A stretch of 52,777 bases of DNA from a virus (Duplodnaviria; Caudoviricetes): IMG/VR virus record IMGVR_UViG_3300036716_000305, positions 1 through 52,777 of that record; one strand, given 5' to 3'. Positions 2,723-42,496 of the stretch are shown here, one piece after another. Made by a program: the position numbers and the translations under genes. The notes under the pieces were generated by a model, which saw nothing but the letters and a program-made list of their open reading frames with translations, did no database searches and was not told the origin of the DNA. The number at the start of each line of letters is the position of its first letter. The first letter of the stretch is position 1.

Positions 2723-2724
2723 AT

Positions 2725-11267: not shown

Positions 11268-13379
11268 ATGACACCAGAAGAATTAGAAAGATTAAAGATG
11301 GAAGGTATCAAAGGATATCTTTCAGGAAACCTCTCACAATCAAGAACAGCTGAGATTTCAAATGCTGTACAAGAAGGTTCGGTAAAACAAGTAACCAGTC
11401 AAACCTCAGCATTTGATCTAAGCCCAGAAAACAGATTTACACCAATGATTGCAGCACAAGCTAATAACAAAGGTGTGAACACAGAAAACCTTGAAACAGG
11501 GAAAATATCTGATTCAATATTTGACCAGATAGGAAAATGGTGGGACGGAGATAAGGCAACTAGTGCTGTAGCAGAATCTCAACCAACGTTTCGACTTAAC
11601 CCAGAAGCAAACAGAGCAGCATTTGATGCGTTGAACGAAAAGTATCCATCAGCTAACTTTAATATGTACCTCCCGGATGTAGACTGGTCTAGTCCAGAGG
11701 CAGAGGCGAAGTTTCAAGCTACTGTTCCAGATAACCTTGCAGTAGACCCTAGAGGGACAAAAGAAGGTATAGTTGTCAATACTACTAACGCTGAGTCTGA
11801 GTTGGTAAACCCTAGAGTCACGGCAAGACAGAACGTTCAAGAAAGAGACGCAGCTGTGAAAGCGGATGTGCAAGCATTTGAAGACGTTTTTGGAGAGAGT
11901 GGCGGTGATGTTCGTGCAGAATATAATGAACATAAAGACACTATTGAAGCTCTAAGCGGACTACAAGAGAGATATAATGCTCTGACCCCTGCTCAACAGA
12001 AAGGTCGTGTTGGATTGGGATTATTAAAGAGGATTGAAGACCTTTCGGTTAATAAAAGCGAAATAGAAGAAAGTATTTTTGAAACTGAAGAGGCTGTATA
12101 TTCTACTAAGGTTGATACTAAGCAGAAAGAAGAAGCCAAACCAGCGGCCACAAAAGAAGAGGTTTATAGCGGTTTAGGCGATGCAGCAAAGAGCTATCAA
12201 GTTCACACCGACGCAGGTGATGCTGAGGGTCAGGCGAATGTTGAAAATGGAATCATTAAAGAGATCGAGAGAAACAAAGGCGACGAAGGCTTCTTAGACA
12301 AACTAAACTCTTGGATTGTAGATAACCCTGCATTAGCCAGTGGTATCGGAAATGCCCTTGTTGGTTTTATTTCAACAGGTAGCGCCTATAAAGCTTTAGG
12401 TCTTGGTATTCAAGGCTATATAAATGGTGTTGGCAAGGCTGACGCAGACAAGAAGGCATGGGACAAGATTGGTAGAGACTTGATGATTGATGATGGAGCC
12501 ACACCGGCTTCTGTCAAGAAATATCTAAAGACTCAGAACATTGAGGACCTTGTATTCTCTAAAGCGCCTCCTGAGATTAAATCAGACTCTCACGGCTCTA
12601 AGTGGGTTGGCGGAAGAAGGTATGAGTTTTGGAATACCCAGCAAGGTATATGGATTAGAAACCCTAATGGAACAGGTTATATTCCAGCAAAGTATTTGTC
12701 TGAGGACTTTCAAAGGTATCCAGACTTTGACAAATCAATACACACAAAGAAAGGTAGAGATGAAGCTCAAAATCAATATGCCAAGGAACAAGCCAACATT
12801 GTAAGCAATGTTATGATAGATTCTGGAGTGCCAACTCATAAGGCAAACGCTCTTCATACAAACCATATTGGAAACGCAATAGATTCGCTACGCACAGCAT
12901 ACGGGCTTGACTTTACAGACCCAGCAACCAGAAACGCTGCTGGCATGGCGATGCAGAGCCATGTTAACTCTGAGGCCGCTAGGTGGCATACCTTTAAAGA
13001 TAAGCACGATGAAAAGGAATATCACAAGTTCAAGTGGGATACTAACTATAAAGCCGCTATTGAGAAAGGGATGATTAAACAGCAGCTTGCTAGTAACTCT
13101 CTTCCACAGGAGATATTGCTTAACAAGGATGGCGAAGTTGACAAGAAAGGTACTTCAAAGTTGTACAGGAAGATTAACAACTTTATTAACCACCCAGACA
13201 ACAAAGGAAAGACGCAAAACCTTGGTTCTGCAATTAAAACCATTTATAACGAATGGGTTACAGAGGTTCATGGTGGAAACAAAGAAAACGCTTTGAAGCA
13301 CAACAAGGGAGAAAGTGCATTTTTAAGGTGGGCTGATGAACACGCAGACTTTGTGATTGAACCACCTGAAGACAAATAG
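11268..13379 (+). CDS. Internal virion / ejection protein
   Basis: 703-aa ORF with AGGAG RBS in the ejection block; one Gly-rich hydrophobic stretch. Confidence 0.55.
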   Translation: MTPEELERLKMEGIKGYLSGNLSQSRTAEISNAVQEGSVKQVTSQTSAFDLSPENRFTPMIAAQANNKGVNTENLETGKISDSIFDQIGKWWDGDKATSAVAESQPTFRLNPEANRAAFDALNEKYPSANFNMYLPDVDWSSPEAEAKFQATVPDNLAVDPRGTKEGIVVNTTNAESELVNPRVTARQNVQERDAAVKADVQAFEDVFGESGGDVRAEYNEHKDTIEALSGLQERYNALTPAQQKGRVGLGLLKRIEDLSVNKSEIEESIFETEEAVYSTKVDTKQKEEAKPAATKEEVYSGLGDAAKSYQVHTDAGDAEGQANVENGIIKEIERNKGDEGFLDKLNSWIVDNPALASGIGNALVGFISTGSAYKALGLGIQGYINGVGKADADKKAWDKIGRDLMIDDGATPASVKKYLKTQNIEDLVFSKAPPEIKSDSHGSKWVGGRRYEFWNTQQGIWIRNPNGTGYIPAKYLSEDFQRYPDFDKSIHTKKGRDEAQNQYAKEQANIVSNVMIDSGVPTHKANALHTNHIGNAIDSLRTAYGLDFTDPATRNAAGMAMQSHVNSEAARWHTFKDKHDEKEYHKFKWDTNYKAAIEKGMIKQQLASNSLPQEILLNKDGEVDKKGTSKLYRKINNFINHPDNKGKTQNLGSAIKTIYNEWVTEVHGGNKENALKHNKGESAFLRWADEHADFVIEPPEDK

Positions 13380-13402: not shown

Positions 13403-16400
13403 ATGGCAAACATTAATCTAGCAGCGCGTGATGACACCTTTATTGATACAGAGGTTGGCAAATATGCCTTTATTGATAACGATACAATTAAAAATGATGA
13501 GGGACACTCTGTTAGACTAAAAGGCTTAGCAGGTCCAGAGACATCAAAGTTTCTTAAGCACGATGGACTGTTTGGCGATGAGTACTCTATATCTTCCGGT
13601 CAATACAAGGGAGACCTTAAGACAAAACAAGTAGGTCAGATTGCAAATGAAGGTGGGTACAACAAGCTTGTACTCACTGGCAATCAAACTCATGGAAGAG
13701 ATGAGGGTGACCTTGTGAACGAGGAGGGTCAAACACTCTCTGACAGGCTTATATTCGAGGGCATTATTGACCCAGCAACTAATGAGGGCCTAAAGAAAAG
13801 CGAGCTTGGAAGAATACATAGAGCATTAAGTGGCGAAGGTGATGACATATACTCTCAGGCACGTGCAGAGGAAGCTCAGAAAGATAGAGAGCAGTTTATT
13901 GGCTGGAAAGGGCAAGCCATTGATGAACAAGACCTTATGGAGTACAATCAAGCAAGAGGCTTGGTCTCTGACGGTACTTGGGGTCAGTATGTTCAAAACT
14001 CAGTTCAATTCAGGTCTAACGATAGAGATATAAACAACCAAGCAAACAGTGCATTCTCTACAGGTCTTGAATCAGGTCTTAATAACATCGCCTCGTCTGC
14101 TTATGGCTTTGCCAGCCTTATTGGAGATATGGTTAATAATGAAGAGTTGTTCGACTGGGGTCAAAGAAATGCAGAGCATTATGAGATTGAGAATGAACAG
14201 TTAGGTCATTATGTAAATACTATTGGAGATGTTGATAGTCTTGTAGACTTTGGAAGATACACAGCTGGAATGTCTGGACAGATGATTCCGTATCTTGTTG
14301 GCTTATTTGGCGCTACAGTTGGTGGTATTGCAGTTGGTACTGCTACTGGTGTAGCCGCTCTAGGAACAGGTATAGCTGTTGGTATCCCTTCAATTATCTA
14401 TGCTGGTGAATCATACCAAGGAATGGAAGGAGACATGACTGAGCGCGGTGTTGGCTGGGCTTTGTCAGCAGGTGTTGCTGCGACTCTTTTAGATAGGGCT
14501 GGACTAAGAGGTATGCTAGATGTTAAAGACGTCTTGTCAAAAGATATTACTGAGCAATTAGTAAAGTCATATGCAGCTAAACAAAACATACCTGTAGATA
14601 AGGCAAGAACATTTTTACAACACCAAGCCAATGCAAGAGTTGTTAGTGCTTATGCAAAACTCAATGGTATTGGATTCGCTGAAGCTAAAAAGAAGATTGG
14701 AGACATAACTGCTGACATTCAACAAGAATTGATTAAGTTCTTAGGAGACAAGGCGTCACTAACACTTAACAAAAGACTTTTGGCTAAGCAAGCAGCTAAA
14801 TCTTTTGGAACTTCTGGTGTTAAAGAGTCATTCACAGAGATGGGTCAAGAGGGTTCTATATACGCATCACAGGTTTTAGGTTCTCAAAAAGAATTTAATT
14901 CTGACGAGTTGCAAGACATCCTTATAAACTCAGCTACTGGTGGCTTTATACTTGGTGGCGGCATTGGTGGATTCCACGGAACTGGGTCATCTTACGCTAA
15001 ATTTCAACAAGCCAAAAGAAACATAAGTGTTTCAGATGGGTTTCATGATAGAAACTTTTATGGAAACAACACAGAGGTTAACTATCAGACTATAGTTGAT
15101 CTGGCTGACAAGGAGTTTGAAAGAATCAAGGCAGAAAATCCTGATGTAGATATTGATGTTACAAAAGAAGGTGAGAAAGATTATAAAGAGGGAACTCTAC
15201 TAGACTCTGTTAAAGAGAAAGGCGTAGTTAAAACAGCCAAAGAGTTTCCCGGTAGGTTTGCTAGAAAGTTTGGTGAGATTATTCAAGATAAGGCAGACGG
15301 CCTGTCTGATGACGCCAAGTTTACTTTGTTTACATTGCTAGATAACTTTGCTCCATCTAATACATCACATATGGCTGGAGTAAACTTTGGAAAGCTAAAA
15401 AGATCTTTGATTGGAAGTCTGAATAGAGAGGTTGGTAATATAGAAGCTAAGCTTATTGCCAAGATAGGAAAGAGGGTCAACAAAAAGTCTAAGCAAGATG
15501 TTTCTGATATGCTAGTTGCATTTCAAAGACTTCAAGAGAAGAAAGGTGAAGAGCCACTTACTGCTAAAGACCTTCCTGAGAATCTTAAGCCACATTTAGA
15601 TGAATTGCACGATGCTAGCAATAAGATAAATCAAGCCACAGACACTCTTCTTCAGATTGTTGAAAGACAAACAGGTACAAAGGTTGGAAGACAGGGTAAT
15701 TACTTTAGTAATGCTGTTCAGTTAGATATTGATAAGATAATCAAAAAGAAAGCTAAGTTCATTCAAGATGTTTTAATAATTCATTTAGGAATGACTCAAG
15801 CTGACGCTTTGCAGTTTTATGATGACCTTGTTAACAGTCCTAAAGGGTACGACCCAGAAAAGCTAAAAGAACTTGGGTTTAAAAACACATCAGGTCCTCA
15901 GAATCTAAAGAGAGCAAATGCTGGTCTTAAGAATTTTAAAGATATTGATGAGTTTACTTATGACAATAAGTTTGACCAGTTGGTTGGTATAGTTGAGAAC
16001 AATATTAACTACGCCATTGATACTAAGTATCTTGGAAAGAACAATGAGAAGTTAGACAAGGCTCTTCAGGTGCTTAAACAACAGATGGGAGACCAGTGGG
16101 ATCCTAGAATTGCAACTTGGATTAAAGATTCAATTGCTGCTGAAAGAGGTGATTACAAGCCTGTTAAGAATAAGTACCTAAGAGAAATGCAATCTTGGAT
16201 ATCTTGGTATAACGCCACTACTCAGCTAAACACAACTCTTCTAGCGTCACTACCAGAGCTAGGTATGGTTATGTTTGGAAAGAGAGCTAAGTCAAACAAC
16301 GAGTTAATATTAGACGCCACAAAAGGTGTTAGTGGTAAATGGTTGCATGACTTTAGAAGAATGAAGTCTAAAGTTCTTAAAAACTCTGGCTTCAGTGAGG

Positions 16401-17428
16401 AGAGTGAGAATAGAGCTGTAGAAGATTTTTACAGATATCAATACGCTCACGGCTCTCAAGGTGCTGTAGCTCAGTTTGATATTGAGATGGGTAATGGCAG
16501 GTCTAGGAAGTTTAGAGAGAAGACTTTAGAGGCTTTCTTTAAGCTTAACCTCCTAGGACCATTTACAGACGGAACTCGTATCGCTCGACTAGCTATGGCG
16601 GTTGATGCCATCTTTAGTGATATAGAGATTATGATAAATCACTACAACGGTTCCCAAAGGGTTTCCAATTATGCAGCTGACGCTTTTGCTAGGCTGAGAG
16701 ATTTAAATGTAAATCCTACGGATATCTCTAAAAGGTATGATAAGCTTGTAAATAATATGAAGAATGACCCTATGGTCGACAAAACAGACGCACAGTCTAT
16801 TCATGAGTATATCGTAAAGAACGACCCAGAGTTGTTAGAAATACTAGATATTGCACGTAAAAGTTACGTTGACAACGCTCTAGCAAACCCTAACCCTGTT
16901 GACAGGCCTTTATGGTATTCTAATCAGCACTTTAGATTGATGACACAGTACAATGGTTTTCTTTCAACATTTTCTTCTCATATTCTACCAAGAGTGTGGA
17001 GAGAGATTAAGCAAGGAAACCCTTCAGCAAGATACAACGCTGTAGCTGCTGTAGCTGGTATGATGGCTCTTGGTTTTATTGGTCAGTCACTTAAAGATGA
17101 GGTTGATAGAGAGGGTGAAACACCTGAAACTTTAACTGAAATGGGATTCTACCAGAGAGGAATAACAGCATCAGGCTTGTTAGGAACTTCTGAAAGGTTC
17201 TTAAACATTGTCCACCCTTTATATAGGTCTTATGAAACAGTTCCAGAACAAATGTTTGATGAGATTGCAGGACCAACATCTGGATCTGCTGGAAAGATAT
17301 ACAGGGCTTTAGAAACAATAGCTGAAGGTAACAACCTAAGGCCAGTGCAATACGGTAAGTTGACTCCTTATGGATCCACTTTGAACTCGTGGAGCAATAT
17401 AGGAAACAATATCATTGGAGATAAATAA
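13403..17428 (+). CDS. Large ejection protein with N-terminal thermonuclease (SNase)-like domain
   Basis: 1341 aa; IDNDTI...VRLKGLAGPE...HGR...G.TLS..LI.EG resembles SNase; TM-like Gly-rich segments; C-terminal LMTQYNGF region reminiscent of T7 gp16-like proteins. Confidence 0.6.
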   Translation: MANINLAARDDTFIDTEVGKYAFIDNDTIKNDEGHSVRLKGLAGPETSKFLKHDGLFGDEYSISSGQYKGDLKTKQVGQIANEGGYNKLVLTGNQTHGRDEGDLVNEEGQTLSDRLIFEGIIDPATNEGLKKSELGRIHRALSGEGDDIYSQARAEEAQKDREQFIGWKGQAIDEQDLMEYNQARGLVSDGTWGQYVQNSVQFRSNDRDINNQANSAFSTGLESGLNNIASSAYGFASLIGDMVNNEELFDWGQRNAEHYEIENEQLGHYVNTIGDVDSLVDFGRYTAGMSGQMIPYLVGLFGATVGGIAVGTATGVAALGTGIAVGIPSIIYAGESYQGMEGDMTERGVGWALSAGVAATLLDRAGLRGMLDVKDVLSKDITEQLVKSYAAKQNIPVDKARTFLQHQANARVVSAYAKLNGIGFAEAKKKIGDITADIQQELIKFLGDKASLTLNKRLLAKQAAKSFGTSGVKESFTEMGQEGSIYASQVLGSQKEFNSDELQDILINSATGGFILGGGIGGFHGTGSSYAKFQQAKRNISVSDGFHDRNFYGNNTEVNYQTIVDLADKEFERIKAENPDVDIDVTKEGEKDYKEGTLLDSVKEKGVVKTAKEFPGRFARKFGEIIQDKADGLSDDAKFTLFTLLDNFAPSNTSHMAGVNFGKLKRSLIGSLNREVGNIEAKLIAKIGKRVNKKSKQDVSDMLVAFQRLQEKKGEEPLTAKDLPENLKPHLDELHDASNKINQATDTLLQIVERQTGTKVGRQGNYFSNAVQLDIDKIIKKKAKFIQDVLIIHLGMTQADALQFYDDLVNSPKGYDPEKLKELGFKNTSGPQNLKRANAGLKNFKDIDEFTYDNKFDQLVGIVENNINYAIDTKYLGKNNEKLDKALQVLKQQMGDQWDPRIATWIKDSIAAERGDYKPVKNKYLREMQSWISWYNATTQLNTTLLASLPELGMVMFGKRAKSNNELILDATKGVSGKWLHDFRRMKSKVLKNSGFSEESENRAVEDFYRYQYAHGSQGAVAQFDIEMGNGRSRKFREKTLEAFFKLNLLGPFTDGTRIARLAMAVDAIFSDIEIMINHYNGSQRVSNYAADAFARLRDLNVNPTDISKRYDKLVNNMKNDPMVDKTDAQSIHEYIVKNDPELLEILDIARKSYVDNALANPNPVDRPLWYSNQHFRLMTQYNGFLSTFSSHILPRVWREIKQGNPSARYNAVAAVAGMMALGFIGQSLKDEVDREGETPETLTEMGFYQRGITASGLLGTSERFLNIVHPLYRSYETVPEQMFDEIAGPTSGSAGKIYRALETIAEGNNLRPVQYGKLTPYGSTLNSWSNIGNNIIGDK

Positions 17429-20400
17429 TGTCAAAGTTTAATATTAATCTAGGATTAAGGGATAAACAAAACCTTAGTGCAGAGAATGTGGCAAGTGCCA
17501 ATGCAGTGCTGGAGAGGATGAGCCGAACAGCCTCAGCAAAGAACCCTCAGGATGATGCTTATGCAGGTCTTGAGGGGACTGAGGTTCCATATAGTGAAGA
17601 GCTTAACAATGTGCTTACTAGGACTGTTAATAGAACAAAGAAAGACTTACCAACAGATGACCTTGCTCAAAACCCAGCTGTCTACGCTGGGACGCTCAAT
17701 CAAATCAATCAGGCAGAGGATAATCTTAACACTACAGACCTTGGCATTAACCCCTCAAGCGACATCAAAGGTCCTTTTGCTGAGGGTGCAAACCAATCTC
17801 CTGAGGAGGCTCTTAATACAGCAGCCGCTGGGAACTTAAGAACTATGGAGACCGGTGAATGGGTAGAGAATTTCGCACCTGAGTGGACTGGTCAGTCTAA
17901 GGCGCTTATGCACGACCAAGTAGAGTCGTTTCTTGGCTACTCTGCTGAGGTAAACAAAAACGCTCAAAAGCTGTCAATTGGGTTAACAGGGCCTCAAAGA
18001 ATAGCGTTTAGTCGGAACTTGGCTGAAGAGAACGGATTAGACCCTAACTCTGTTGGTGAATACCTTAATGGATTTATTGTAAACTACGCACACCTTCAAG
18101 AAAAGGGCGTACCTCAAGCTCTTACAGATATCCATATGGCTGCGATGCTACACGTTGGTATGGAGAACAAATGGATGTCTGCACAGACTAAAGAACAAAG
18201 GGATGTCTTACAACCCGGACAGGTTGCTGTAGACTATGAAACTGAGCTTGGAGCGTCATCTCGTACAGATGAAAAGGTTGGTAGGTTAATACACAAAACA
18301 CTTGGTATTCAATCTGACTCAAAGATGGACGTGATTGGAGGAGCTATAGCTAGAAAGCTAGTTGTAGATACTCATGGTGGTGATAAACTATGGGGAGTAG
18401 CCAGAATAGCCACATCCAAAAGAGATGATCAAGGGGTTCAGCATACAGCAAATGTTTCTGTTTTAACCAGAGAGGGTGTTGCTAAAGCCAAGTCGATGAG
18501 GGGATTGATTGAAACAATGATACCGTCAACCCTTAAAGAGCCTAGGTTTACTCGTACAGAAGAGCCAGCAAACTTTGTAAGGCCATCTAAAGGAGATCCA
18601 AAGAAAGACTATGGAAGGTTTAAGTTTGTAAACAAAACCATAGATATTCTTGATAACACACCCGGAAGAGCGTCAACGCTTGTAGCTAATGTTCTCAATA
18701 TCATTCAAGATACTAAAGCCTTTCAAGAAGAGGGTTTCTTAAATATCAAGAAAGATGGAAAGGGCGGAGAGAAGACTGTTCAACTGGATGAGGCTACTGG
18801 ACAGTACAAGCCATACAAGGGTAACGAGATAAAAAGAAGAGCTGCAAACAATGAGATAGCGTTCGCCTTTCATATGAACAATGCCTTTTCGTATAATGAC
18901 CACTTCTTAGGGACTAACAACAGGTTCTATGCTAGAGGCGTTCATTTTAACGGAGCTAGTGTTGGAAACTATCAGGCAACCAAGTCCGCTAGAGCTATGC
19001 TTGAAGGGCTCCCTGTCGAGTACAATATAGATCCAAACCCAGCAGGAAACAGCAAAGATGGAAGTAATGATCTTCAGAATCTTAAGGCTGGAATCATGAA
19101 GAAGTTTGGAAAGCCATACAGTACAACACGATATGGAGTTAGAGAAGCTGCAATGGTGTTTGATAAGAGGGTTGCATACTGGGCAGAGTTAATGAAAGAT
19201 GATGCCGCTATCCATCAGAACAAAGAGGAAATTGCACAAGAAGCTATTAGAGAGTTTGCAGATGAGCATAACAATAAAGGTGAGGGCGAAGGCTACATGG
19301 CTGTTAGTGCAATGGTTGAGGCCGTTAAGCTTCACCAAGCTATGCAGGTAAACAAAAATAGAGCGAGAGCTGGCCAAAAGGCACTTACTTATCGGTCTGG
19401 TTTTTATACAGAGATTGATGGTATCGCTAATGGTATTGGTCATAATACATTACAAGGTGGTGGGTCTGAGCTTATCCAAAGGGCGGTTGGACTATACTCT
19501 CCAAAAGAGTTGGCGCAAGTTGCAAAAGATGTTAAAGATGGCATTCACAACCCTGATGATGTATATGAGTTAACAACGGATGGTGCTATAGCGGCCTTAA
19601 CAAGCAAAGGTTGGAACGATGAAAGACAAGCAAAGGTAGATGCAGTTCTTTCCTTGTTCACACTTGACCGTGGTTTCGGTAAGAAGCCAATGATGATCTT
19701 TGGTTATGGCGCTCGTGAGGCAAGGATACTAGATGCTGTTGGTGATTGGGTTGATGAGCAGATAAACAAAGACCCTGATTTGGCGAGAGCTATCGCAGAC
19801 TCGGGTGTTATTAACTTGGAAGATGTTAAGCAAATTCTTGGATGGGGAGCTAACAGCGCTGTAGAGGAGACGTTCACATCTGTCAAGCTTCTGAATTCGT
19901 TTATGCAAGAAACTGCACAGATTGCAATCAATGCTGGCTTAGAACCTTGGTTTACTATGAGAGAGGGTCATCGCATTAACTTTGGTGAGTTTATAGATGA
20001 AATAATCCCGGGCGCAGGAATTCCTATAAGATATCAAGAGGGTAATAGGGTAGGAGACGACATGAATGTCACAGCCTATCCTAGATTTAGAGGTATTCAG
20101 GGCAAGAGTAACAAGTCTGTTACACAGGCTGGAGTTCTTCCAACACAGGCTCAGGATGGTATTAATATCGGAACCTCTTTTCAAAACATGGAGAGATACT
20201 TCGCCAAGCGTGGTAATGCTAGAAAAGGAGCTGGAGGTCACCAAGTGTTTGATGGTATCTTTATGACACCTAAAGACGCTCCAAAGTGGGCAAAAACTCT
20301 AAATGATGACTTTTACGACATCAACAAAAGCTTTAGTTTTGCTCAAGAGTTTTACGACCAGTTGATGACTGAAGCAGCATTTAGAAATGCAGACAAAAAG

Positions 20401-20499
20401 GGGATTTTAGGCATGTTAAATGCAATTAATAACGCTAGAAGATCTGTGCTTGGTAGAGTTAGTAAGGAAAATGTAAGACAATTCTATTGGGACCATTAA
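17428..20499 (+). CDS. Putative virion-encapsidated single-subunit RNA polymerase (N4 vRNAP-like)
   Basis: Motif A YTEIDGIANG, motif B RGFGKKPMMIFGYG and motif C HQVFDG in the correct order; last gene of the ejection block. Confidence 0.8.
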   Translation: MSKFNINLGLRDKQNLSAENVASANAVLERMSRTASAKNPQDDAYAGLEGTEVPYSEELNNVLTRTVNRTKKDLPTDDLAQNPAVYAGTLNQINQAEDNLNTTDLGINPSSDIKGPFAEGANQSPEEALNTAAAGNLRTMETGEWVENFAPEWTGQSKALMHDQVESFLGYSAEVNKNAQKLSIGLTGPQRIAFSRNLAEENGLDPNSVGEYLNGFIVNYAHLQEKGVPQALTDIHMAAMLHVGMENKWMSAQTKEQRDVLQPGQVAVDYETELGASSRTDEKVGRLIHKTLGIQSDSKMDVIGGAIARKLVVDTHGGDKLWGVARIATSKRDDQGVQHTANVSVLTREGVAKAKSMRGLIETMIPSTLKEPRFTRTEEPANFVRPSKGDPKKDYGRFKFVNKTIDILDNTPGRASTLVANVLNIIQDTKAFQEEGFLNIKKDGKGGEKTVQLDEATGQYKPYKGNEIKRRAANNEIAFAFHMNNAFSYNDHFLGTNNRFYARGVHFNGASVGNYQATKSARAMLEGLPVEYNIDPNPAGNSKDGSNDLQNLKAGIMKKFGKPYSTTRYGVREAAMVFDKRVAYWAELMKDDAAIHQNKEEIAQEAIREFADEHNNKGEGEGYMAVSAMVEAVKLHQAMQVNKNRARAGQKALTYRSGFYTEIDGIANGIGHNTLQGGGSELIQRAVGLYSPKELAQVAKDVKDGIHNPDDVYELTTDGAIAALTSKGWNDERQAKVDAVLSLFTLDRGFGKKPMMIFGYGAREARILDAVGDWVDEQINKDPDLARAIADSGVINLEDVKQILGWGANSAVEETFTSVKLLNSFMQETAQIAINAGLEPWFTMREGHRINFGEFIDEIIPGAGIPIRYQEGNRVGDDMNVTAYPRFRGIQGKSNKSVTQAGVLPTQAQDGINIGTSFQNMERYFAKRGNARKGAGGHQVFDGIFMTPKDAPKWAKTLNDDFYDINKSFSFAQEFYDQLMTEAAFRNADKKGILGMLNAINNARRSVLGRVSKENVRQFYWDH

Positions 20500-20501
20500 A
20501 A

Positions 20502-20550
20502 TAAAAAATACCCACCGAACACTTAATTGTGTCTGGTGGGTATTTTTTTA
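20502..20550. terminator. Bidirectional intrinsic terminator between the convergent modules
   Basis: TAAAAAATACCCACC...GGTGGGTATTTTTTTA inverted repeat with A/T tracts on both sides. Confidence 0.9.
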
Positions 20551-20551
20551 T

Positions 20552-20830
20552 CTAATAGCCTCTTTGGGCTGTTACATTCTTTAAGTTCTTTTTAGCTTGA
20601 ATCATACCATCCTTGGCCAGCTTAGTAGCTAAGGACATAGCCTCACCGGGTTCCATGCCAGCTTCTAGGTTTGCTTTGGTTTCTGCTTCAATATTCTCTC
20701 TGTAAATCTTATCAATCATGTAGTCATTGATTTTAGGCGTACCACATAAACTCTCTGGTACACCATATTGTTCGCAATAATCAGAGTCTTTAACTCCGTG
20801 TATTGACATTATGTTATGATCTCTTGACAT
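20552..20830 (-). CDS. Hypothetical protein
   Basis: 92-aa ORF with AGGAG RBS, ending at the terminator. Confidence 0.7.
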   Translation of the reverse strand: MSRDHNIMSIHGVKDSDYCEQYGVPESLCGTPKINDYMIDKIYRENIEAETKANLEAGMEPGEAMSLATKLAKDGMIQAKKNLKNVTAQRGY

Positions 20831-20985
20831 TCGTCTTCTCCTTTTTTGTTTGTATCAATCCATTCGATTAGGTGTTGAACTGGATGTTTGTCACCAACTT
20901 CAAATGGTCCATACTCTGTAATTATGGTTGTCTTCTCACCCGTGTGGTCATCAACAATTGTAAACACGGCTTTACACAAGGCCAC
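20809..20985 (-). CDS. Hypothetical protein (58 aa; not in ORF track)
   Basis: GTG start after GAGG (MALCKAVFTIVDD...), overlaps the upstream TAG. Confidence 0.5.
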   Translation of the reverse strand: MALCKAVFTIVDDHTGEKTTIITEYGPFEVGDKHPVQHLIEWIDTNKKGEDECQEIIT

Positions 20986-21164
20986 TACCTGTCCTCACTA
21001 ACCATATTAAAACCATGAATAGCTGCTGACTTCAATAGGCTTTGTATGGTTGTCTCTGCAGCGTCTACCATTGAATCTGATGCTACAGTTGATTCTAGAA
21101 CCATTCTAGCTTCCTTTAGCATGACAGATAGTCCGGCAGAAATTGCTTCTGTGTTTTCTAACAT
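20985..21164 (-). CDS. Hypothetical protein (59 aa; not in ORF track)
   Basis: GGAG RBS + ATG (MLENTEAISAGL...) immediately after thyX. Confidence 0.55.
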   Translation of the reverse strand: MLENTEAISAGLSVMLKEARMVLESTVASDSMVDAAETTIQSLLKSAAIHGFNMVSEDR

Positions 21165-21165
21165 A

Positions 21166-21807
21166 TTATTCTTCTCCGTGTGTTGTAAGTGCCTTCCATG
21201 ACACTGGGTATAGTGGTTTTACAATGTCTTGAATAAGCATTGCCAGTTCTGTTACTTCTTGTTGGGCTCCATCATGAGTCCTTTGTGTATAAAATCTTGC
21301 GTAAGCCGCTAAAGAGCCTGTCCAGTACCATTCGGTATAAACACCTTGTGGTAGTACGAACCTTGCTTGCTCTGGAGCGACACCTAGCTTTAATAAAGAA
21401 TCATAATTAAAAAGGGCTGTCTTACACCCATCTCTATACGATGCCTCTACTAACCATAGGTTACTACCTATCTCTCCAGAAGAGCCTTGCTTGGCTCCAT
21501 CGGTAGGGGCTTTTCTCCATTTAGGCATAAAGAGCTCTGGAGGGTCTGAAACATATCTTCTGCTTATTTCATTCTCAGTAAAGCCAACTTTGTGTTTGAA
21601 ACATTGTGTTCTTATGCTTATTGGTGCTTTAATTCTTAAAGTAATCTGCGGGTGTGCAAATGGTGTCCAATGGTTATGAGATGCTAAGTACTCTATTAGC
21701 TTTTCATCCTTGGAATCAAAAGTATCTTTGTGTTTATTGAAAGAAACTCTTGCTGCGTTTGCAACTGTTGCGTCACTACCCATACTATCTACTAGTGTTG
21801 CATTCAT
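21166..21807 (-). CDS. thyX: Flavin-dependent thymidylate synthase
   Basis: ANAARVS, HWTPFAH, NEISRRY, APEQARFVLPQ, AQQEV motifs. Confidence 0.95.
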   Translation of the reverse strand: MNATLVDSMGSDATVANAARVSFNKHKDTFDSKDEKLIEYLASHNHWTPFAHPQITLRIKAPISIRTQCFKHKVGFTENEISRRYVSDPPELFMPKWRKAPTDGAKQGSSGEIGSNLWLVEASYRDGCKTALFNYDSLLKLGVAPEQARFVLPQGVYTEWYWTGSLAAYARFYTQRTHDGAQQEVTELAMLIQDIVKPLYPVSWKALTTHGEE

Positions 21808-21998: not shown

Positions 21999-22052
21999 TA
22001 TCTCTCCCAATGGCAGGACAACCCTATAAACATAAGGTTGCCATGTTTTTGT

Positions 22053-22154: not shown

Positions 22155-22169
22155 ACGTATTACTCCTTA

Positions 22170-23123: not shown

Positions 23124-23132
23124 TTATTTCTC

Positions 23133-30444: not shown

Positions 30445-30562
30445 TAAAAAAGAGCCATAAAAGACTATGCAGGAGGTGCATTGTGGTAGTAGTCTTCTAT
30501 GGCTTATTTATTATTATCACTTTCCACTACCACGTGGACCGGTGTAATTAAAATTTATTCTC
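30445..30562 (-). ncRNA. Candidate sRNA or attenuating leader with anti-SD (CCUCC) loop
   Basis: Starts at the promoter-like element; 15-bp stem (30504-30490/30467-30453), inner UGCA-CCUCC-UGCA hairpin, followed by a U-tract. Confidence 0.45.
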
Positions 30563-30581
30563 TATAACCCGTAGGACGAGA
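30552..30581 (-). promoter_or_regulatory. Putative phage RNAP promoter (leftward, replication genes)
   Basis: TCTCGTCCTACGGGTTATAGAGAATAAATT, exact copy of 41804-41833 on the opposite strand; TATA|GAG initiation-like end; abuts the RNAP stop. Confidence 0.75.
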
Positions 30582-30582
30582 T

Positions 30583-33015
30583 TCAACAGAAGAAATAATC
30601 TGAATCAACGACCTTTGAGATATCCAGTCTTCCTAGTTTAGGAGGGTGTTCTGTATATCCAATACCAGCCATATCTTTTCTTATATGACCAAATATATCC
30701 CTATCGTACATATTGATAAAGACGCTCTTTGTTACTCTTACTAAGTCTTCAACATCATCTGCATGGACACTATAAGAATCATGAATAGCGCCAAACGATG
30801 TAATACCCATATCATGTAGTTCATTAATGACCAGTGACATATGGCTAGCATCCATGCTGTGAACGTAGTTGGGGCTTATCCCACTCATTACCTCATGTAT
30901 AGCTGGTATTTCAGTTTGCTCTCTATAAACTAAAACGATCTTTTTGTTTTTGTAGAACAATGATACATCCTTTTGTCGAGTTACCCACTTCTCAGATATA
31001 ACTGGGAAGCCACTGGGAGTTGACCAAGTAACACAACTATGCCCCTCATCTTTCATTACATACTTCACAACAGATTGCAGGTAGTTCTTAATAGCTACTG
31101 GGCCACTACATATAGTGTTGTATGTATCAACCAAGTCCTTACTAAGCTTTCTAGCGATTGACTTTGTTATTCCATACTTTGTGGTCATCCCGGCATTGTA
31201 GCAGTCTGTATAGATAATGTCAGCGATACAGTTGACTCCAGCATCGTATGCCTTGGTCATAGACCCACGCTTACTAATTCCTTTACGAATCAGCTTCATC
31301 GGTATCTTAGCCAAGACAGCGCCCAAGTCAGTACCAATATTTCTATTGATAATTCCTTTGGCCACAATGATGTAGAAGTCTATCGGCTTATCTTTAGGTA
31401 TTAAACCGACCATACCGCCAGACACCTCATCTCTACTCATAGCCGCTAGATGTTGTGTTCCGTTTGAACTTCCATCTATGGATATTGGTAGTCGTGTGTA
31501 GTATTCATCACCAGACAACAAAGAACCATGATAGGCACAAACTTCAAAACAAAGGGACAGAAATACCCAAGGTTTCTCAGCATCCATCCAAATGTCTTTA
31601 TTCTTTAATGGATCTTCAGCAATATCCCATAATAACTCGATATTCTCTTCAGCCCATCTAAACCTGTCATTTAGCGACATTTTGTCCACACTCAGGTCAG
31701 GTATTCCATCAGCCTTAAGGTCTGTCACATAGTCAACCTCGAGCCAATCAAGCTTATTCAACTCATTAATCGTATATGATTTGTTGAAACTGTTGGCTGT
31801 GTGGATCATCATCCACCTATAACCTTTGTCAGTCATTAACCTCTTCTCATTGAACATTAAATGCCCTCTGGCAAGGTCGCTAGACTGATATGAAAAGAAC
31901 GGGTCTTTAGCATATATACGCCCTCTAAAGTCTAAAAACATAGACTGATAGAAAGAGTACGATGCCCAGCCACTAGGACCATTAATAGTCTCTAAGATTG
32001 CCTTATCTCTAGCTGCTTTGGATTGTTTGGCTAAGCAGTATTGCTTTGCTATCCAATTCTGATTATGAGCCTCAAACAAGACTTCTGTCTCTTTGATTTG
32101 CTCCTTAATCTTTAAGGCAACCTTTCCACCATCCTTTAAAGACCTTACTCTTCTGAAGAGTTTATTCAATTCAGACTCAATAGTCTTAACTGTTGTGGCG
32201 TTTCCCTTTTCTGGTTGGAATATCGCTCCATCCTTGTACAGGTCTACACCAATCAATTGTTTATTGAACGAGCCTCTTCTGATGTCTCTTACATCAAACA
32301 CCCTGTCTTTATTATTTATATCTTTAAGAACTATGGTGGTCGAGGTAATGTCATCCTCTAAAGACTCTGAGACTCTTGCAACATCTGGATTAACAATCCA
32401 TTTGACAGATTCAAGGTTGTTGACCGCCTTTACATATTCAGCCTTTGATTCTATAGTGTTCACCTTAGACTTAACAAGCTTACTTTTAATACCACCTACC
32501 ATGCGCTCGTTGGACTCCCATTGGGGGTACTTGTAGAGGCTGATACCAGACCGTTCTTTCTCGATAAAGCTAATATCCATGAAGTTGACACCCATCTCTA
32601 AATGATATGGCTGTAATCTTAACGTTCTTGTGATATTGTTCGACTTTATCTGCTCTAATGTAAAGTACGGCTCTCTACCCATTACTAAGTAGTCCGCAGA
32701 CACTAGTCTTGTTAGTATTAGCCAACCAAGCCTCATCCTATCGTCAGATGATACATCTAGAGACAGGTTGTCTTTTACAATACCTCCAATAACCATGTTG
32801 GCATTTGTTAGCATTATGTGTCCATCATGCCTCCTGAATTGCCCAATTAGGGCGAGGAATGAATCTTTAACAATATTGAACATTCTAAAATCATCTCTAA
32901 GGCATTTTGCATTCCTGATGATCTTACATGCAATGTTATTATTGTTGCGCTTGTGCATAACGTAGTCTTCTACGATCCACACAATCTCTTGAATTTCATT
33001 TCGATTGTCTTGCAT
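30583..33015 (-). CDS. T7-like single-subunit DNA-dependent RNA polymerase
   Basis: DFRGRIY, PISIDGSSNGTQH, RKGISKRGSMTKAY, W.TPSGFPV, SPNYVHSMDASH, IHDSY; start ATG 33015 preferred (track gives 33066). Confidence 0.95.
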   Translation of the reverse strand: MQDNRNEIQEIVWIVEDYVMHKRNNNNIACKIIRNAKCLRDDFRMFNIVKDSFLALIGQFRRHDGHIMLTNANMVIGGIVKDNLSLDVSSDDRMRLGWLILTRLVSADYLVMGREPYFTLEQIKSNNITRTLRLQPYHLEMGVNFMDISFIEKERSGISLYKYPQWESNERMVGGIKSKLVKSKVNTIESKAEYVKAVNNLESVKWIVNPDVARVSESLEDDITSTTIVLKDINNKDRVFDVRDIRRGSFNKQLIGVDLYKDGAIFQPEKGNATTVKTIESELNKLFRRVRSLKDGGKVALKIKEQIKETEVLFEAHNQNWIAKQYCLAKQSKAARDKAILETINGPSGWASYSFYQSMFLDFRGRIYAKDPFFSYQSSDLARGHLMFNEKRLMTDKGYRWMMIHTANSFNKSYTINELNKLDWLEVDYVTDLKADGIPDLSVDKMSLNDRFRWAEENIELLWDIAEDPLKNKDIWMDAEKPWVFLSLCFEVCAYHGSLLSGDEYYTRLPISIDGSSNGTQHLAAMSRDEVSGGMVGLIPKDKPIDFYIIVAKGIINRNIGTDLGAVLAKIPMKLIRKGISKRGSMTKAYDAGVNCIADIIYTDCYNAGMTTKYGITKSIARKLSKDLVDTYNTICSGPVAIKNYLQSVVKYVMKDEGHSCVTWSTPSGFPVISEKWVTRQKDVSLFYKNKKIVLVYREQTEIPAIHEVMSGISPNYVHSMDASHMSLVINELHDMGITSFGAIHDSYSVHADDVEDLVRVTKSVFINMYDRDIFGHIRKDMAGIGYTEHPPKLGRLDISKVVDSDYFFC

Positions 33016-33037
33016 AGCTACCACCCTATATAATGAA

Positions 33038-33196
33038 TTATTTGTCTTTCTTGTTAAAGGCGTCAATAACCCTTATTGGATTTACTTCCTTACCTCGCCT
33101 AGTATCTCGCCACTCATATGTGTAGCGTTCTTTACCTGTCACCGACCAATACACATCTGACTTAAAACCATCCCAAAGATCTTTGAAGAAGCTCAA
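33038..33196 (-). CDS. Hypothetical protein (52 aa; not in ORF track)
   Basis: TTG start overlapping the upstream stop, GGAG upstream (MSFFKDLWDGFKS...). Confidence 0.4.
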   Translation of the reverse strand: MSFFKDLWDGFKSDVYWSVTGKERYTYEWRDTRRGKEVNPIRVIDAFNKKDK

Positions 33197-36836: not shown

Positions 36837-36846
36837 TATGTTTCTC

Positions 36847-37562: not shown

Positions 37563-37570
37563 TTCCTCCA

Positions 37571-41803: not shown

Positions 41804-41833
41804 TCTCGTCCTACGGGTTATAGAGAATAAATT
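41804..41833 (+). promoter_or_regulatory. Putative phage RNAP promoter (rightward, toward the packaging/late module)
   Basis: Exact 30-bp match to the reverse complement of 30552-30581. Confidence 0.75.
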
Positions 41834-42023: not shown

Positions 42024-42496
42024 TGTACTATAAGCTGACCTTTGGGAAGCAAAGACACTGAGTGTACTTAGTGTACTTGAGTGTGCTTGTATGTACAATG
42101 TATGTACAATGTATGTACCATTGAGTACCCTTGGGGTTAAACATACGTACACCACACGCACCATCAGTACACCATGATCCCTACAGTAACTCAGCGAATA
42201 CAGTGTACCTTATGGTGATAATGTACCCACAATGTACCCACAGTACCCATCTGTACCCATCTGTACCTATATGTATCATGCGACCTTTGGGAGCAGTGTG
42301 ATCTTAAAGTACTGTGTGTACCTATAAGCCGCCATCCGTCCTGTTAGTCATCGATCGTACTATATACGACCTCTGGGAGTTAAGGGGGGTGTGGAATCTA
42401 TTCGTCCCCCATCAATTATATAGATAACTCACAAACGACGAAAGGTACCAAACGTCAGAACAGCACCAACAATACTAACAATACTAACAATACTAA
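42024..42496. repeat. Short-repeat-rich non-coding region (possible terminus, origin or pac region)
   Basis: Many GTAC-cored repeats (TGTATGTACAA, GTACCCAYM), GACCTYTGGGA x3, AACAATACT x3. Confidence 0.7.

What the first reader, a model, noticed from the sequence alone, without database searches (positions are those of the whole stretch)
17428..20499. Stand-alone ~1000-aa 'mini' virion RNA polymerase alongside a second, T7-like RNAP
Seen: EIDGIANG, RGFGKKPMMIFGYG and VFDG motifs in the last gene of the ejection-protein block, plus a separate conventional T7-type RNAP at 30583-33015. Established: N4 packages a ~3500-aa vRNAP whose ~1100-aa core has, as I recall, similar motif variants (FDG rather than HDS in motif C); T7-like phages have one RNAP and N4's second RNAP is split in two. 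Inference: this phage injects a naturally minimal vRNAP and then switches to an unsplit T7-like RNAP, fitting neither the T7 nor the N4 scheme. It is a possible new in vitro transcription enzyme.
Basis: partly seen in the sequence, partly recalled or inferred. Interest (0 to 1): 0.85.

Follow-up and report, generated by a model that had tools for sequence, protein, structure and literature searches.

The report
Hidden second RNA polymerase, probably injected
A marine phage carries, beside an ordinary T7-type RNA polymerase, a second and very divergent RNA polymerase gene at the end of its ejection-protein genes, where phage N4 keeps the polymerase it injects into the host.

Summary
ORF 17428-20499 (1023 aa) has no Pfam hit, yet its AlphaFold model matches T7, mitochondrial and N4 single-subunit RNA polymerases over residues ~120-1020 (Z 21-27). 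The catalytic residues are invariant in its relatives.

It belongs to a rare, unannotated polymerase lineage. That lineage is separate from both T7-like RNAPs and N4 virion RNAPs, and closer to each than they are to one another. "Mini" is a misnomer: it is a full T7-sized enzyme plus a ~115-aa disordered N-terminal extension.

The second RNAP (30583-33015/33066, minus strand) is a canonical PF00940 enzyme. All 5 related IMG/VR records examined carry both polymerases.

The nearest cultured phage is Roseobacter phage CRP-7. Its gene in the same position (gp33, "hypothetical") also folds as an RNA polymerase.

Virion packaging is not shown, but three things support it:
- The gene holds the N4 vRNAP position: last gene of the late operon, after two large ejection-like proteins, followed by a terminator.
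- It lies in the unit headed by the promoter-like element tentatively assigned to the T7-like RNAP.
- Its N-terminal peptide matches, genome by genome, that of the upstream 1341-aa ejection-like protein. This could be a shared capsid address tag.

Verdict: new variant of a known kind. Interest 0.72.

The parts
17428..20499 (+). Gene for the divergent single-subunit RNA polymerase (P0001, 1023 aa). Residues 1-113 are predicted disordered; residues ~120-1020 form a full T7-RNAP-type fold.
17440..17463 (+). N-terminal peptide NINLGLRD of the polymerase, matching NINLAARD at the N-terminus of the upstream 1341-aa protein. Candidate shared capsid-targeting or ejection tag.
18910..18930 (+). T/DxxGR-type motif (GTNNRFY; R499 invariant)
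19411..19434 (+). Motif A (EIDGIANG). D664 equals T7 D537; G669 equals T7 G542.
19669..19713 (+). Motif B (RGFGKKPMMIFGYGA). R748, K752 and Y760 equal T7 R627, K631 and Y639.
20242..20256 (+). Motif C (QVFDG). D942 equals T7 D812. The F-D-G form is shared with N4 virion RNAPs.
20495..20556 (.). Inverted repeat with A/T runs on both sides: a likely bidirectional terminator that closes the late operon directly after the polymerase gene.
   Evidence: I7. RNA-library contigs of two studies stop at 20466 and 20483 while a DNA contig runs on (weak hint).
13403..17428 (+). 1341-aa ejection-like (internal virion protein D-sized) protein. Its C-terminus hits PHROG 'virion structural protein' families and CRP-7 gp34. 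Its N-terminal peptide (13409-13432) matches that of the polymerase.
11268..13379 (+). 703-aa protein, first of the conserved triad (about 700 aa, about 1340 aa, polymerase). No family hit.
30583..33066 (-). Canonical unsplit T7-type RNA polymerase (P0002; 827 aa from TTG, 810 aa from the ATG at 33015).
30552..30581 (-). 30-nt promoter-like element ending ...GGGTTATAGAGAA, directly after the T7-type RNAP stop and pointing at the replication genes.
   Evidence: (I1)
41804..41833 (+). Second, identical copy of the 30-nt element, pointing at the terminase/structural operon that ends with the polymerase gene.
   Evidence: (I1)
42037..42378 (-). Three same-direction copies of TCCCARAGGTC-N(3-8)-TATAG (42037-42047, 42282-42292, 42368-42378), upstream of the first early ORF (ATG near 41764). 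Candidate early promoters; a replication origin or pac site is not excluded.

Best explanation
ORF 17428-20499 encodes an active DNA-dependent single-subunit RNA polymerase of a previously unannotated lineage. Shown: the fold, the homology, the conserved catalytic residues, the gene position and the co-occurrence with a T7-type RNAP. Inferred: it is made late, as the last cistron of the structural operon, which starts behind the promoter-like element that I tentatively assign to the T7-type RNAP. It is then loaded into the capsid with the two large ejection-like proteins encoded just upstream, perhaps through the short N-terminal peptide it shares with the 1341-aa protein. It would be ejected unfolded through the tail at infection. 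In the cell it would transcribe the early leftward genes (about 41.8 kb down to 30.6 kb), which include the T7-type RNAP gene. The three TCCCARAGGTC...TATAG repeats, or the conserved hairpin cassettes, are the candidate promoters. The T7-type RNAP would then take over from the two ...TTATAGAG elements to express replication and late genes. That gives an N4-like 'bring your own polymerase' start followed by a T7-like continuation, with the packaged polymerase free-standing rather than embedded in a 3500-aa protein.
For: Fold: the AlphaFold2 model has pLDDT 77.9 and pTM 0.75. The listed top Foldseek PDB hits (ranks 1-50 shown) are all single-subunit RNAPs: yeast mtRNAP 1.3e-16, T7 1.4e-16, N4 mini-vRNAP 5.3e-15. 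VIA-align gives T7 elongation complex Z 26.9 (525 aligned, rmsd 4.1), yeast mtRNAP Z 24.7 (682), T7 promoter complex Z 22.1 (687) and N4 2po4 Z 21.9 (737). Model residues ~120-1020 cover T7 residues 14-883.

Homology: family profile against the T7-like family gives 99.7%, E 2.2e-25, 512 columns. Against the N4 vRNAP family it gives 98.8%, E 5.8e-17, 448 columns. 19 of 40 relatives hit PF00940 at E<=0.01.

Catalytic residues: R499, D664, R748, K752, Y760 and D942 are kept in 21 of 21 family rows and G669 in 20 of 21, in the T7 and N4 catalytic columns. The small residue at the T7 G542 position and the single acidic residue in motif C are RNAP-type features (recalled knowledge).

Context: in 17 of 17 IMG/VR loci the gene is followed by a strand switch. 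In all 12 loci with enough upstream DNA, a 1300-1384-aa ORF lies directly upstream. Before that ORF, 9 of the 12 have a 699-815-aa ORF, 2 have a 507-aa ORF and 1 is cut by the locus start. Several of these loci are near-identical. N4 gp50 has the same position: last gene of the late operon after gp52 and gp51, convergent on gp49. Of the 17 loci I examined the records of the 5 with the longest contigs, and all 5 also hold an 816-828-aa PF00940 RNAP.

Shared N-terminal peptide: window NINLAARD/NINLGLRD, L015 SSLIDML/SSLIDLI, L016 YLKGLKDRL/YLSGLSQRL, L018 RINALLDIL/RMNALIEAL. Same-genome score excess has z 3.9, and 4 of 20000 permutations reach it. Five control region pairs give z -0.7 to 0.3. 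The Arg codons differ (CGT vs AGG), so the match is selected at peptide level.

Promoter logic: an element ending TTATAGAG lies just after the T7-type RNAP stop and again before the late genes in the window, G001 and G002. No copy lies ahead of the early genes. Sigma-70-like sites in 40300-42800 are no more frequent than in shuffles: 5 against 6.8 +/- 3.1.

Cultured relative: the CRP-7 portal is 44% identical. The gp33 family is in the same position and folds as an ssRNAP: pLDDT 80.5, Foldseek 3.1e-11, Z 22.8 to T7.

Weak hint of expression: contigs of two RNA libraries cover the gene and stop at 20466 and 20483, while a DNA contig runs on.
Against: There is no virion proteome, no biochemistry and no transcript mapping, so packaging rests on gene order and a short peptide match.

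The 1341-aa protein family gave no profile match to T7 gp16 or to the C-terminal domain of N4 gp50 (probability 0.2-0.3%). The window's capsid protein and 703-aa protein show no pairwise similarity to N4 gp56 or gp51. The 'ejection protein' label therefore rests on size, order and two PHROG 'virion structural protein' hits.

The tree does not join this lineage to N4 vRNAPs, and the profile score is higher to T7-like enzymes.

The N-terminal match is clear in about 4-6 of 10 genomes. It is weak or absent in L005, L007, L017 and CRP-7. The regexes were derived from the pairs themselves.

P0001 has Gln, not His, at the T7 H784 position (16 of 21 relatives have His).

The promoter assignments are guesses. 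The host is unknown, so the sigma-70 scan says little. The three repeats are absent from the other 47 loci held and could be origin or pac elements.

The Asp-Asp distance in the model could not be measured, because no coordinates were available.
Confidence: 0.58

Rival explanations
1. It is an active second RNA polymerase that is not packaged. It is made late and works in the same cell, for example on a subset of very late transcripts, as a back-up when the host attacks the T7-type enzyme, or to make primers or R-loops for late replication or packaging.
For: The fold and catalytic residues fit any RNAP role. Alteromonas phage R8W is annotated with two PF00940-type RNAP genes, neither in the structural block, so two non-virion ssRNAPs in one phage may already exist. 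No proteomic evidence of packaging is available.
Against: An enzyme needed in the same cycle is oddly placed as the last cistron of a ~30-kb late operon. That position is conserved in 17 of 17 loci and in CRP-7, and it equals that of N4 gp50. The N-terminal peptide shared only with the neighbouring ejection-like protein has no explanation under this reading. No third promoter class was seen in the late region.
Confidence: 0.2
2. It is the phage's replicative or priming polymerase, a Pol I-fold enzyme that copies or primes DNA. This would make up for the lack of a recognisable DNA polymerase gene.
For: No PF00476 family A DNA polymerase is found in the window (92% complete by CheckV) or in 5 of 5 related records. 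No other unassigned large ORF lies in the replication block. ssRNAPs and family A DNA polymerases share a fold, and mitochondrial and T7 RNAPs do prime replication (recalled).
Against: The whole model, including the N-terminal domain, matches RNAPs. Motif A is DGxxNG with Gly at the T7 G542 position. Motif B has Tyr at the T7 Y639 position. Motif C has a single Asp. These are RNAP signatures (recalled). CRP-7 has both a DNA polymerase (gp24) and the gp33-type protein. The gene is in the structural operon, not with the helicase and primase. The five relatives are only 43-82% complete.
Confidence: 0.08
3. It is an ejection or structural protein that keeps only the polymerase fold and no longer polymerises.
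For: P0001 gives no Pfam hit. H784 of T7 is replaced by Gln. The gp33 family is so divergent that 0 of 27 members hit Pfam.
Against: Every catalytic position tested is kept in 20-21 of 21 family rows, across sequences only 20-40% identical. The gp33 family also keeps the Arg, both Asp and the Tyr-Gly. Such conservation is not expected in a dead enzyme.
Confidence: 0.04

Closest known systems
Coliphage N4 virion RNA polymerase gp50 (Schitoviridae), central 'mini-vRNAP' domain
   Same: Single-subunit RNAP fold: Z 21-22 with 737-760 residues aligned, the longest alignments of all hits. Family profile match 98.8%, E 5.8e-17. Motif A is DG[IV]xNG and motif C is F-D-G. The gene is the last of the late operon, after ejection-protein genes, and convergent on the replication genes.
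   Different: N4 gp50 is about 3500 aa, with N- and C-terminal domains flanking the polymerase. Hardies et al. 2016 relate the C-terminal domain to internal virion protein D (PMC4819975, passages read). Here the polymerase is a separate 1023-aa protein downstream of a separate 1341-aa protein. No longer fused form was found (weak evidence). The lineage is not nested in N4 vRNAPs. N4's second polymerase is split into two genes (RNAP1 and RNAP2), whereas here it is one 810-827-aa protein. Packaging is shown for N4 and not here.
T7 RNA polymerase and T7-like RNAPs (Pfam PF00940)
   Same: Best structural Z is 26.9, with full-length coverage of T7 residues 14-883. Best profile match is E 2.2e-25. 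His at T7 H545, Met at M635 and, in most relatives, His at H784 are shared. Size is similar once the ~115-aa extension is set aside.
   Different: P0001 itself fails PF00940 at E 0.1. It forms its own lineage (SH-aLRT 100). Motif C is FDG, not HDS. The gene lies in the structural operon, not among early or middle genes. It has a disordered N-terminal extension with a tag-like peptide.
Roseobacter phage CRP-7 (MK613349), CRP-7-type marine podoviruses
   Same: Nearest cultured genome: portal 44% identical, T7-type RNAP gp30 the best tblastn hit (5e-58). It has the same layout of three large genes (gp35, gp34, gp33) ending the structural block and convergent on the early block. The gp34 C-terminus matches the window's 1341-aa protein. 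The gp33 family folds as an ssRNAP.
   Different: gp33 belongs to a different, still more divergent lineage (profile match to the P0001 family only E 7e-4 to 2e-3). It has a ~250-aa C-terminal extension and an H-D-A motif C. CRP-7 encodes a DNA polymerase and the window does not. The CRP-7 paper names only ORF30 as an RNAP (PMC6918029, passages read).
Other virion-packaged phage RNAPs: crAss-like phage phi14:2 gp66 and phiKZ/AR9 virion RNAPs
   Same: The same strategy: a phage-made RNAP carried in the particle to start transcription independently of the host (recalled; PMC7598289 seen in a search listing only).
   Different: Those enzymes are of the two-barrel (multisubunit-type) kind, not the Pol I-like single-subunit fold found here (recalled, not tested here).
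Alteromonas phage vB_AmeP_R8W (Autographiviridae, Foturvirus)
   Same: One phage with two full-length single-subunit RNAP genes (gp05 and gp33). Both fall in the T7-like group of the tree.
   Different: Both R8W genes are canonical T7-like and lie in the early or middle region. Neither follows the internal virion protein genes.

Membership tests
Single-subunit (T7 / N4 / mitochondrial type) DNA-dependent RNA polymerases | Pol I-like right-hand fold with the RNAP-specific N-terminal domain | tested here: met
   The model (pLDDT 77.9) matches T7, yeast and human mitochondrial and N4 RNAPs at Z 19-27 over model residues ~120-1020, covering T7 residues 14-883.
Single-subunit (T7 / N4 / mitochondrial type) DNA-dependent RNA polymerases | Motif A and motif C aspartates (T7 D537, D812) | tested here: met
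   D664 and D942 lie in the same alignment columns and are kept in 21 of 21 family rows. D664 sits at the end of a beta hairpin and D942 at a beta turn in the model. Their distance could not be measured because no coordinates were available.
Single-subunit (T7 / N4 / mitochondrial type) DNA-dependent RNA polymerases | Motif B R-x3-K-x7-Y-G and the T/DxxGR arginine | tested here: met
   R748, K752, Y760, G761 and R499 are kept in 21 of 21 rows and are invariant in the 40-row alignment.
Single-subunit (T7 / N4 / mitochondrial type) DNA-dependent RNA polymerases | Template-dependent RNA synthesis | not testable with these tools
   Needs purified protein.
Pfam PF00940 (RNA_pol) | Score above the family's gathering cut-off (22 bits) | tested here: not met
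   P0001 has no hit at E<=0.1. 19 of 40 relatives hit at E<=0.01, best 6.3e-14. PHROG 414 'RNA polymerase' hits at E 2e-4. The family is a fringe lineage that the model only partly reaches.
N4-type virion RNA polymerase (Schitoviridae gp50) | Giant (~3500 aa) protein with the polymerase domain between N- and C-terminal domains | tested here: not met
   The protein is 1023 aa. Relatives are 872-1699 aa. A search among proteins of 1792-5000 aa found none (weak).
N4-type virion RNA polymerase (Schitoviridae gp50) | Polymerase domain groups with N4-like vRNAPs | tested here: not met
   Homologous (E 5.8e-17) but a separate group. The P0001 family and the 7 N4-like domains are each one side of a branch (SH-aLRT 100 and 96), and the order among groups is unresolved.
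N4-type virion RNA polymerase (Schitoviridae gp50) | Gene at the end of the late operon after ejection-protein genes | tested here: met
N4-type virion RNA polymerase (Schitoviridae gp50) | Protein present in virions and injected; early transcription independent of host RNAP | not testable with these tools
   No proteome or infection data. Indirect support only, from the shared N-terminal peptide.
N4-type virion RNA polymerase (Schitoviridae gp50) | Recognition of hairpin promoters on single-stranded template | not tested
   Hairpin cassettes precede early genes, but their role is unknown.
T7-like RNAP (for the second gene, 30583-33066) | PF00940 above cut-off, a single unsplit chain, groups with T7-like enzymes | tested here: met
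   PF00940 at 248 bits, E 2.3e-73. A single ORF without stops. It lies inside the T7-like group, next to CRP-7 gp30 and the partner RNAPs of related records.

The most novel reading that the evidence does not exclude
A whole, widely distributed group of marine podoviruses (CRP-7 type and its metagenomic relatives) starts infection with a free-standing ~1000-1400-aa single-subunit RNA polymerase. The enzyme is carried in the capsid and addressed there by a short N-terminal peptide that co-varies with that of the largest ejection protein. It then hands over to a T7-type RNAP. The P0001 and gp33 lineages would be the unfused state from which the giant N4 vRNAP (polymerase plus internal virion protein D) arose, or a parallel solution. 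The tag would be a portable capsid-loading signal for cargo proteins in podoviruses.
Probability: 0.4. Interest if true: 0.85.

Novelty: new variant of a known kind. Interest (0 to 1): 0.72.

Why it matters
Virion-packaged single-subunit RNAPs are so far known only as the central domain of the giant gp50 of N4-like phages. A free-standing, T7-sized enzyme in the same genomic position would matter in several ways.

- It would show that the 'bring your own polymerase' strategy is wider than Schitoviridae. It would also give a simple case of how a ~115-kDa enzyme is loaded into and ejected from a podovirus capsid.
- It offers evolutionary context for the origin of N4 gp50. The lineage is closer by profile to both T7-like and N4 enzymes than they are to each other.
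- It makes the question testable in a cultured system, because CRP-7 gp33, annotated as hypothetical, is the counterpart.
- The co-varying N-terminal peptide is a concrete candidate for a capsid-targeting signal.
- The enzymes are a new source of single-subunit RNAPs with unknown promoter specificity for in vitro transcription.
- The phage is common. 15 runs hold at least half of the sampled words of an 8-kb stretch; the 20 runs holding any part of it come from 17 studies.

Tried and rejected
Sequence searches that found nothing:
- phmmer of P0001 and a 16-sequence profile against PDB sequences found no RNAP.
- tblastn of P0001 and of the distant relative P0017 against 50,697 deposited phage genomes gave no match. 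Megablast of 20 kb of the window gave none either.

Tests of the ejection-protein identity of the neighbours:
- The profile of the 1341-aa family against T7 gp16 and against the N4 gp50 C-terminal domain gave probability 0.2-0.3%.
- BLASTP of the window's capsid protein against the N4 coat protein, and of the 703-aa protein against N4 gp51, gave nothing.

Fused forms: a search among proteins of 1792-5000 aa found none. The tool calls this weak evidence.

CRP-7 gp33:
- The single sequence against the P0001 family gave probability 0.17%.
- Its family profile against the P0001 family gave 12-26%, E 7e-4 to 2e-3.
- Its family profile against a single N4 mini-vRNAP sequence gave 0.3%. Against the N4 vRNAP family profile it gave 17.6% and against the T7-like family 0.5%.
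- Only the predicted fold and the motif-consistent alignment settled it.

Tree: a quick LG+G4 search with SH-aLRT only. It does not resolve the order of the P0001, T7-like and N4 groups. No root and no mitochondrial sequences were available. I left N4 RNAPII out of the tree because it is split.

Other negatives and limits:
- The TCCCARAGGTC motif is absent from all 47 other loci held.
- Model coordinates are not exposed, so the Asp-Asp distance was not measured.
- All runs laid were contigs, so depth cannot rank genes and no transcript starts were seen.

Literature: five searches found no description of a free-standing packaged ssRNAP beside a T7-like RNAP.
- PMC10386132 and PMC12629253 (passages read) had nothing relevant.
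- PMC10747016 (passages read) proposes a vRNAP in phage StenR_269 from size and helicity alone.
The supplements of PMC6918029 might hold CRP-7 annotation or proteome details that I could not see.


Full report
**Setting.** The window is a whole IMG/VR virus record of 52,777 bp, linear and about 92% complete.
- Plus-strand structural genes run from 42.7 kb to the end and from 1 to 20.5 kb. They include terminase, portal, scaffold, capsid, fibres, lysin and three large proteins.
- A minus-strand block runs from about 41.8 kb down to 21.2 kb. It holds small early genes, an SSB, a methyltransferase, a primase, a T7-type RNAP, a second SSB, a helicase, an exonuclease, PhoH, ribonucleotide reductase and ThyX.

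**Observation.** ORF 17428-20499 is open and gives 1023 aa with the three quoted motifs at residues 662-669, 748-761 and 939-943. ORF 30583-33066 (810 aa from the ATG at 33015) hits PF00940 at E 2.3e-73. The N4 mini-vRNAP, translated from EF056009, reads EADGVTNG, KRGIAKNPLTITIYGSGA and KIFDG.

**Is it a polymerase?**
- Standard tools mostly miss it. There is no Pfam hit and no PDB sequence hit with one sequence or a 16-row profile. The only hit is PHROG 414 'RNA polymerase' at E 2e-4.
- Relatives are rare. A word-indexed search of 5.8 billion proteins found 27. Among 1.84 billion cluster representatives read exhaustively, 42 scored E<=0.001. In the word-indexed search no source gave any of them a name other than 'hypothetical protein'.
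- The nearest ESM Atlas clusters are also 'hypothetical protein', followed by PF00940 clusters. Of 40 aligned relatives, 19 reach PF00940 at E<=0.01.
- An AlphaFold2 model built on the 40-row alignment has pLDDT 77.9 and pTM 0.75. Residues 1-113 are disordered.
- In Foldseek, the listed hits (ranks 1-50) are all single-subunit RNAPs.
- VIA-align gives T7 elongation complex Z 26.9 (525 aligned, rmsd 4.1), yeast mitochondrial RNAP Z 24.7 (682), T7 promoter complex Z 22.1 (687) and N4 mini-vRNAP Z 21.9 (737) and Z 21.3 (760). Model residues ~120-1020 cover T7 residues 14-883. The protein is thus a complete T7-sized RNAP with an N-terminal extension, not a cut-down one.

**Catalytic residues.**
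- An E-INS-i alignment of the polymerase cores of four groups (49 rows) puts the motif A Asp, the motif B Tyr-Gly and the motif C Asp of all groups in the same columns.
- T7 R425, D537, G542, R627, K631, Y639 and D812 correspond to P0001 R499, D664, G669, R748, K752, Y760 and D942. These are kept in 20-21 of 21 family rows.
- The signature is mixed. Motif C is F-D-G as in N4 vRNAPs (5 of 7). The residues at T7 H545, M635 and mostly H784 are T7-like. P0001 itself has Gln at the H784 position.

**Relationships.**
- With family profiles, the P0001 family matches T7-like RNAPs at 99.7%, E 2.2e-25 (512 columns). It matches N4 vRNAP domains at 98.8%, E 5.8e-17 (448 columns). N4 against T7-like gives only E 2.6e-8.
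- A quick maximum-likelihood tree (514 columns) makes each of the four groups one side of a branch (SH-aLRT 96-100). The order among the P0001 family, T7-like and N4 groups stays unresolved.
- The family is its own lineage and not a member of either named family.

**Context and conservation.**
- A scan of IMG/VR gave 17 related loci. In all 17 the polymerase-like gene is followed by a switch to the opposite strand.
- In all 12 loci with enough upstream DNA, a 1300-1384-aa ORF lies directly upstream. Before it lies a 699-815-aa ORF in 9, a 507-aa ORF in 2, and a cut ORF in 1. Several of these loci are near-identical.
- I examined the records of the 5 loci with the longest contigs. All 5 also hold an 816-828-aa PF00940 RNAP on the opposite strand.
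- In the window the polymerase start overlaps the stop of the 1341-aa ORF by one base. A long inverted repeat with T-runs follows at 20495-20556.
- N4 has the same logic. The late operon runs gp53, gp52, gp51, gp50 (vRNAP) and ends convergent on gp49.
- gp51 and gp52 are ejection proteins released with the vRNAP (PMC13434306, abstract read). The N4 vRNAP is embedded in an internal virion protein D homologue (PMC4819975, passages read).

**Cultured relative.**
- The best deposited match for the portal (44% identity) and for the T7-type RNAP (5e-58) is Roseobacter phage CRP-7. Its structural block ends with gp35, gp34 and gp33 (1223, 1368 and 1235 aa), convergent on the early block.
- The gp34 C-terminus matches the window's 1341-aa protein. 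gp33 is annotated as hypothetical, and the paper names only ORF30 as an RNAP (PMC6918029, passages read).
- The gp33 family (27 proteins) has 0 of 27 Pfam hits and only marginal profile matches.
- Its invariant residues form RNAP-like motifs. A model of the member P0078 (pLDDT 80.5) matches RNAPs: Foldseek 3.1e-11; Z 22.8 to T7, 21.1 to yeast mtRNAP and 18.2 to N4.
- The position at the end of the ejection-like genes is therefore held by an RNAP-fold protein in two divergent lineages of this phage group.

**A shared N-terminal peptide.**
- The first residues of the 1341-aa protein and of the polymerase resemble each other within a genome but differ between genomes:
  - window: MANINLAARD / MSKFNINLGLRD
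  - L015: SSLIDML / SSLIDLI
  - L016: YLKGLKDRL / YLSGLSQRL
  - L017: KRMQSILSLL / KRMMTLVNSL
  - L018: RINALLDIL / RMNALIEAL
  
- I scored the first 60 aa of one protein against the first 80 aa of the other in 10 genomes. The same-genome sum was 306 against 230 +/- 16 in 20,000 permutations, and none reached it. 6 of 10 pairs were top of both row and column.
- With 9 genomes the excess has z 3.9 (4 of 20,000). Five control pairings of other regions, or of the ~700-aa protein, gave z -0.7 to 0.3 and 0 of 9 top pairs.
- The Arg codons differ between the two copies in the window.
- I read this as a shared address or docking peptide. The signal is absent or weak in L005, L007, L017 and CRP-7.

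**Transcription logic (inference).**
- The 30-nt element ...GGGTTATAGAGAA occurs twice. One copy lies just after the T7-type RNAP stop, pointing at the replication genes. The other lies at 41804-41833, pointing at the late genes.
- Two related records have the same layout with their own version ending TTATAGAG. This fits a promoter class for the T7-type enzyme, and it places the P0001 gene in a late unit.
- The early genes between 41.8 and 33 kb, including the T7-type RNAP gene, have no such element.
- Sigma-70-like sites are not enriched there: 5 found against 6.8 +/- 3.1 expected. This is weak evidence because the host is unknown.
- Upstream of the first early ORF lie three same-direction copies of TCCCARAGGTC-N-TATAG. 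Conserved hairpin cassettes lie between the first early genes, and a related version occurs in G002. Either could serve an injected polymerase. An origin, a pac site, RNase III sites or terminators are alternatives.

**Environmental data.**
- 15 runs hold at least half of the sampled words of an 8-kb stretch; the 20 runs holding any part of it come from 17 studies.
- Contigs of two RNA libraries cover the polymerase gene and stop at 20466 and 20483, just before the hairpin, while a DNA contig runs on. This is a weak hint of a transcript end.

**Rival raised by the data.** No family A DNA polymerase is detectable in the window or in 5 of 5 relatives. A replicative role was therefore considered. 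It is made unlikely by the RNAP-type motif signature, the full-length match to RNAPs, the late-operon position, and the fact that CRP-7 has both a DNA polymerase and gp33.

**Verdict.** Packaging and early function are the best-supported reading, at about 0.6, but remain unproven. The finding is a new variant of a known kind (virion or second phage ssRNAPs). It comes with a testable cultured counterpart and a candidate capsid tag.

Noticed in passing
L028 (MK613349) 17859-21566, minus strand: CRP-7 gp33, annotated as a hypothetical protein, belongs to a family with 0 of 27 Pfam hits. Its model nevertheless matches T7, mitochondrial and N4 RNAPs (Z 22.8, 21.1, 18.2), and it keeps the Arg, Asp, Tyr-Gly and Asp motif residues. 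It is a cryptic second RNAP in a cultured marine phage.
   Followed up: yes
window, whole; records G001-G005: No family A DNA polymerase (PF00476) is found in the window or in 5 of 5 related records, and there is no other unassigned large ORF in the replication block. CRP-7 has one (gp24). The phage may rely on the host replicase or on an unrecognised enzyme.
   Followed up: partly
window 40837-41486, minus strand; G002 about 36123-36790: Stop / AGTAAGAGTC / variable hairpin / TATCGTTTACTTTAAGCAC / RBS cassettes lie between the first early genes. A related version (AGTAAAAGTC ... TATCGTTTACTTTAA), differing at one flank base, recurs in a related phage whose proteins are far more diverged. The scan flags them as terminator-like. 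Promoter, RNase III site or attenuator roles are open.
   Followed up: partly
window 42037-42047, 42282-42292, 42368-42378, minus strand: Three exact same-direction copies of TCCCARAGGTC, each followed within a few bases by TATAG or a similar sequence, lie in the 660-bp non-coding region ahead of the early genes. The motif is absent from the 47 other loci held.
   Followed up: partly
window 30552-30581 and 41804-41833; G001 19003-19026, 33294, 33725; G002 24139-24159, 37268, 37657: A promoter-like element ending TTATAGAG sits immediately after the T7-type RNAP stop codon and again (once or twice) ahead of the late genes, in three related phages. The upstream part differs between the window and G001/G002.
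   Followed up: partly
G001 (L046) 32185 and 32845: Two copies of a 30-nt repeat containing an 8-bp stem with a 3-nt loop (GAAGACAC-AGC-GTGTCTTC) lie in the early leader region of a related phage. The shape recalls N4 vRNAP promoter hairpins.
   Followed up: no
proteins P0019 and one other member of alignment A2: Two relatives of the polymerase carry an RNase_T-type exonuclease domain (PF00929, best E 2.4e-18). P0019 is 1699 aa, with the polymerase part at residues about 1012-1384.
   Followed up: no
Pfam gave no hit at E<=0.1.
   Followed up: partly
window 40090-40401, minus strand: A short (103 aa) SSB-family protein (PF00436, E 1.5e-7) lies among the earliest genes, in addition to an Enc34-type ssDNA-binding protein at 29630-30139. 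N4 RNAPs depend on ssDNA-binding cofactors, so this may be relevant.
   Followed up: no
window 478-2722: Two radical SAM proteins (PHROG 1802, E 5e-51 and 5e-31) are encoded inside the structural gene block.
   Followed up: no
L029 (MW043865) 1608-3734 and 20915-23305: Alteromonas phage R8W is annotated with two full-length T7-type RNAP genes, both outside the structural block. This is a deposited, annotated genome with two single-subunit RNAP genes in one phage.
   Followed up: partly
window 36000-44000: Near-identical DNA is held by many marine metagenome runs: 15 runs hold at least half of the sampled words. One metatranscriptome library holds 77% of the words.
   Followed up: partly
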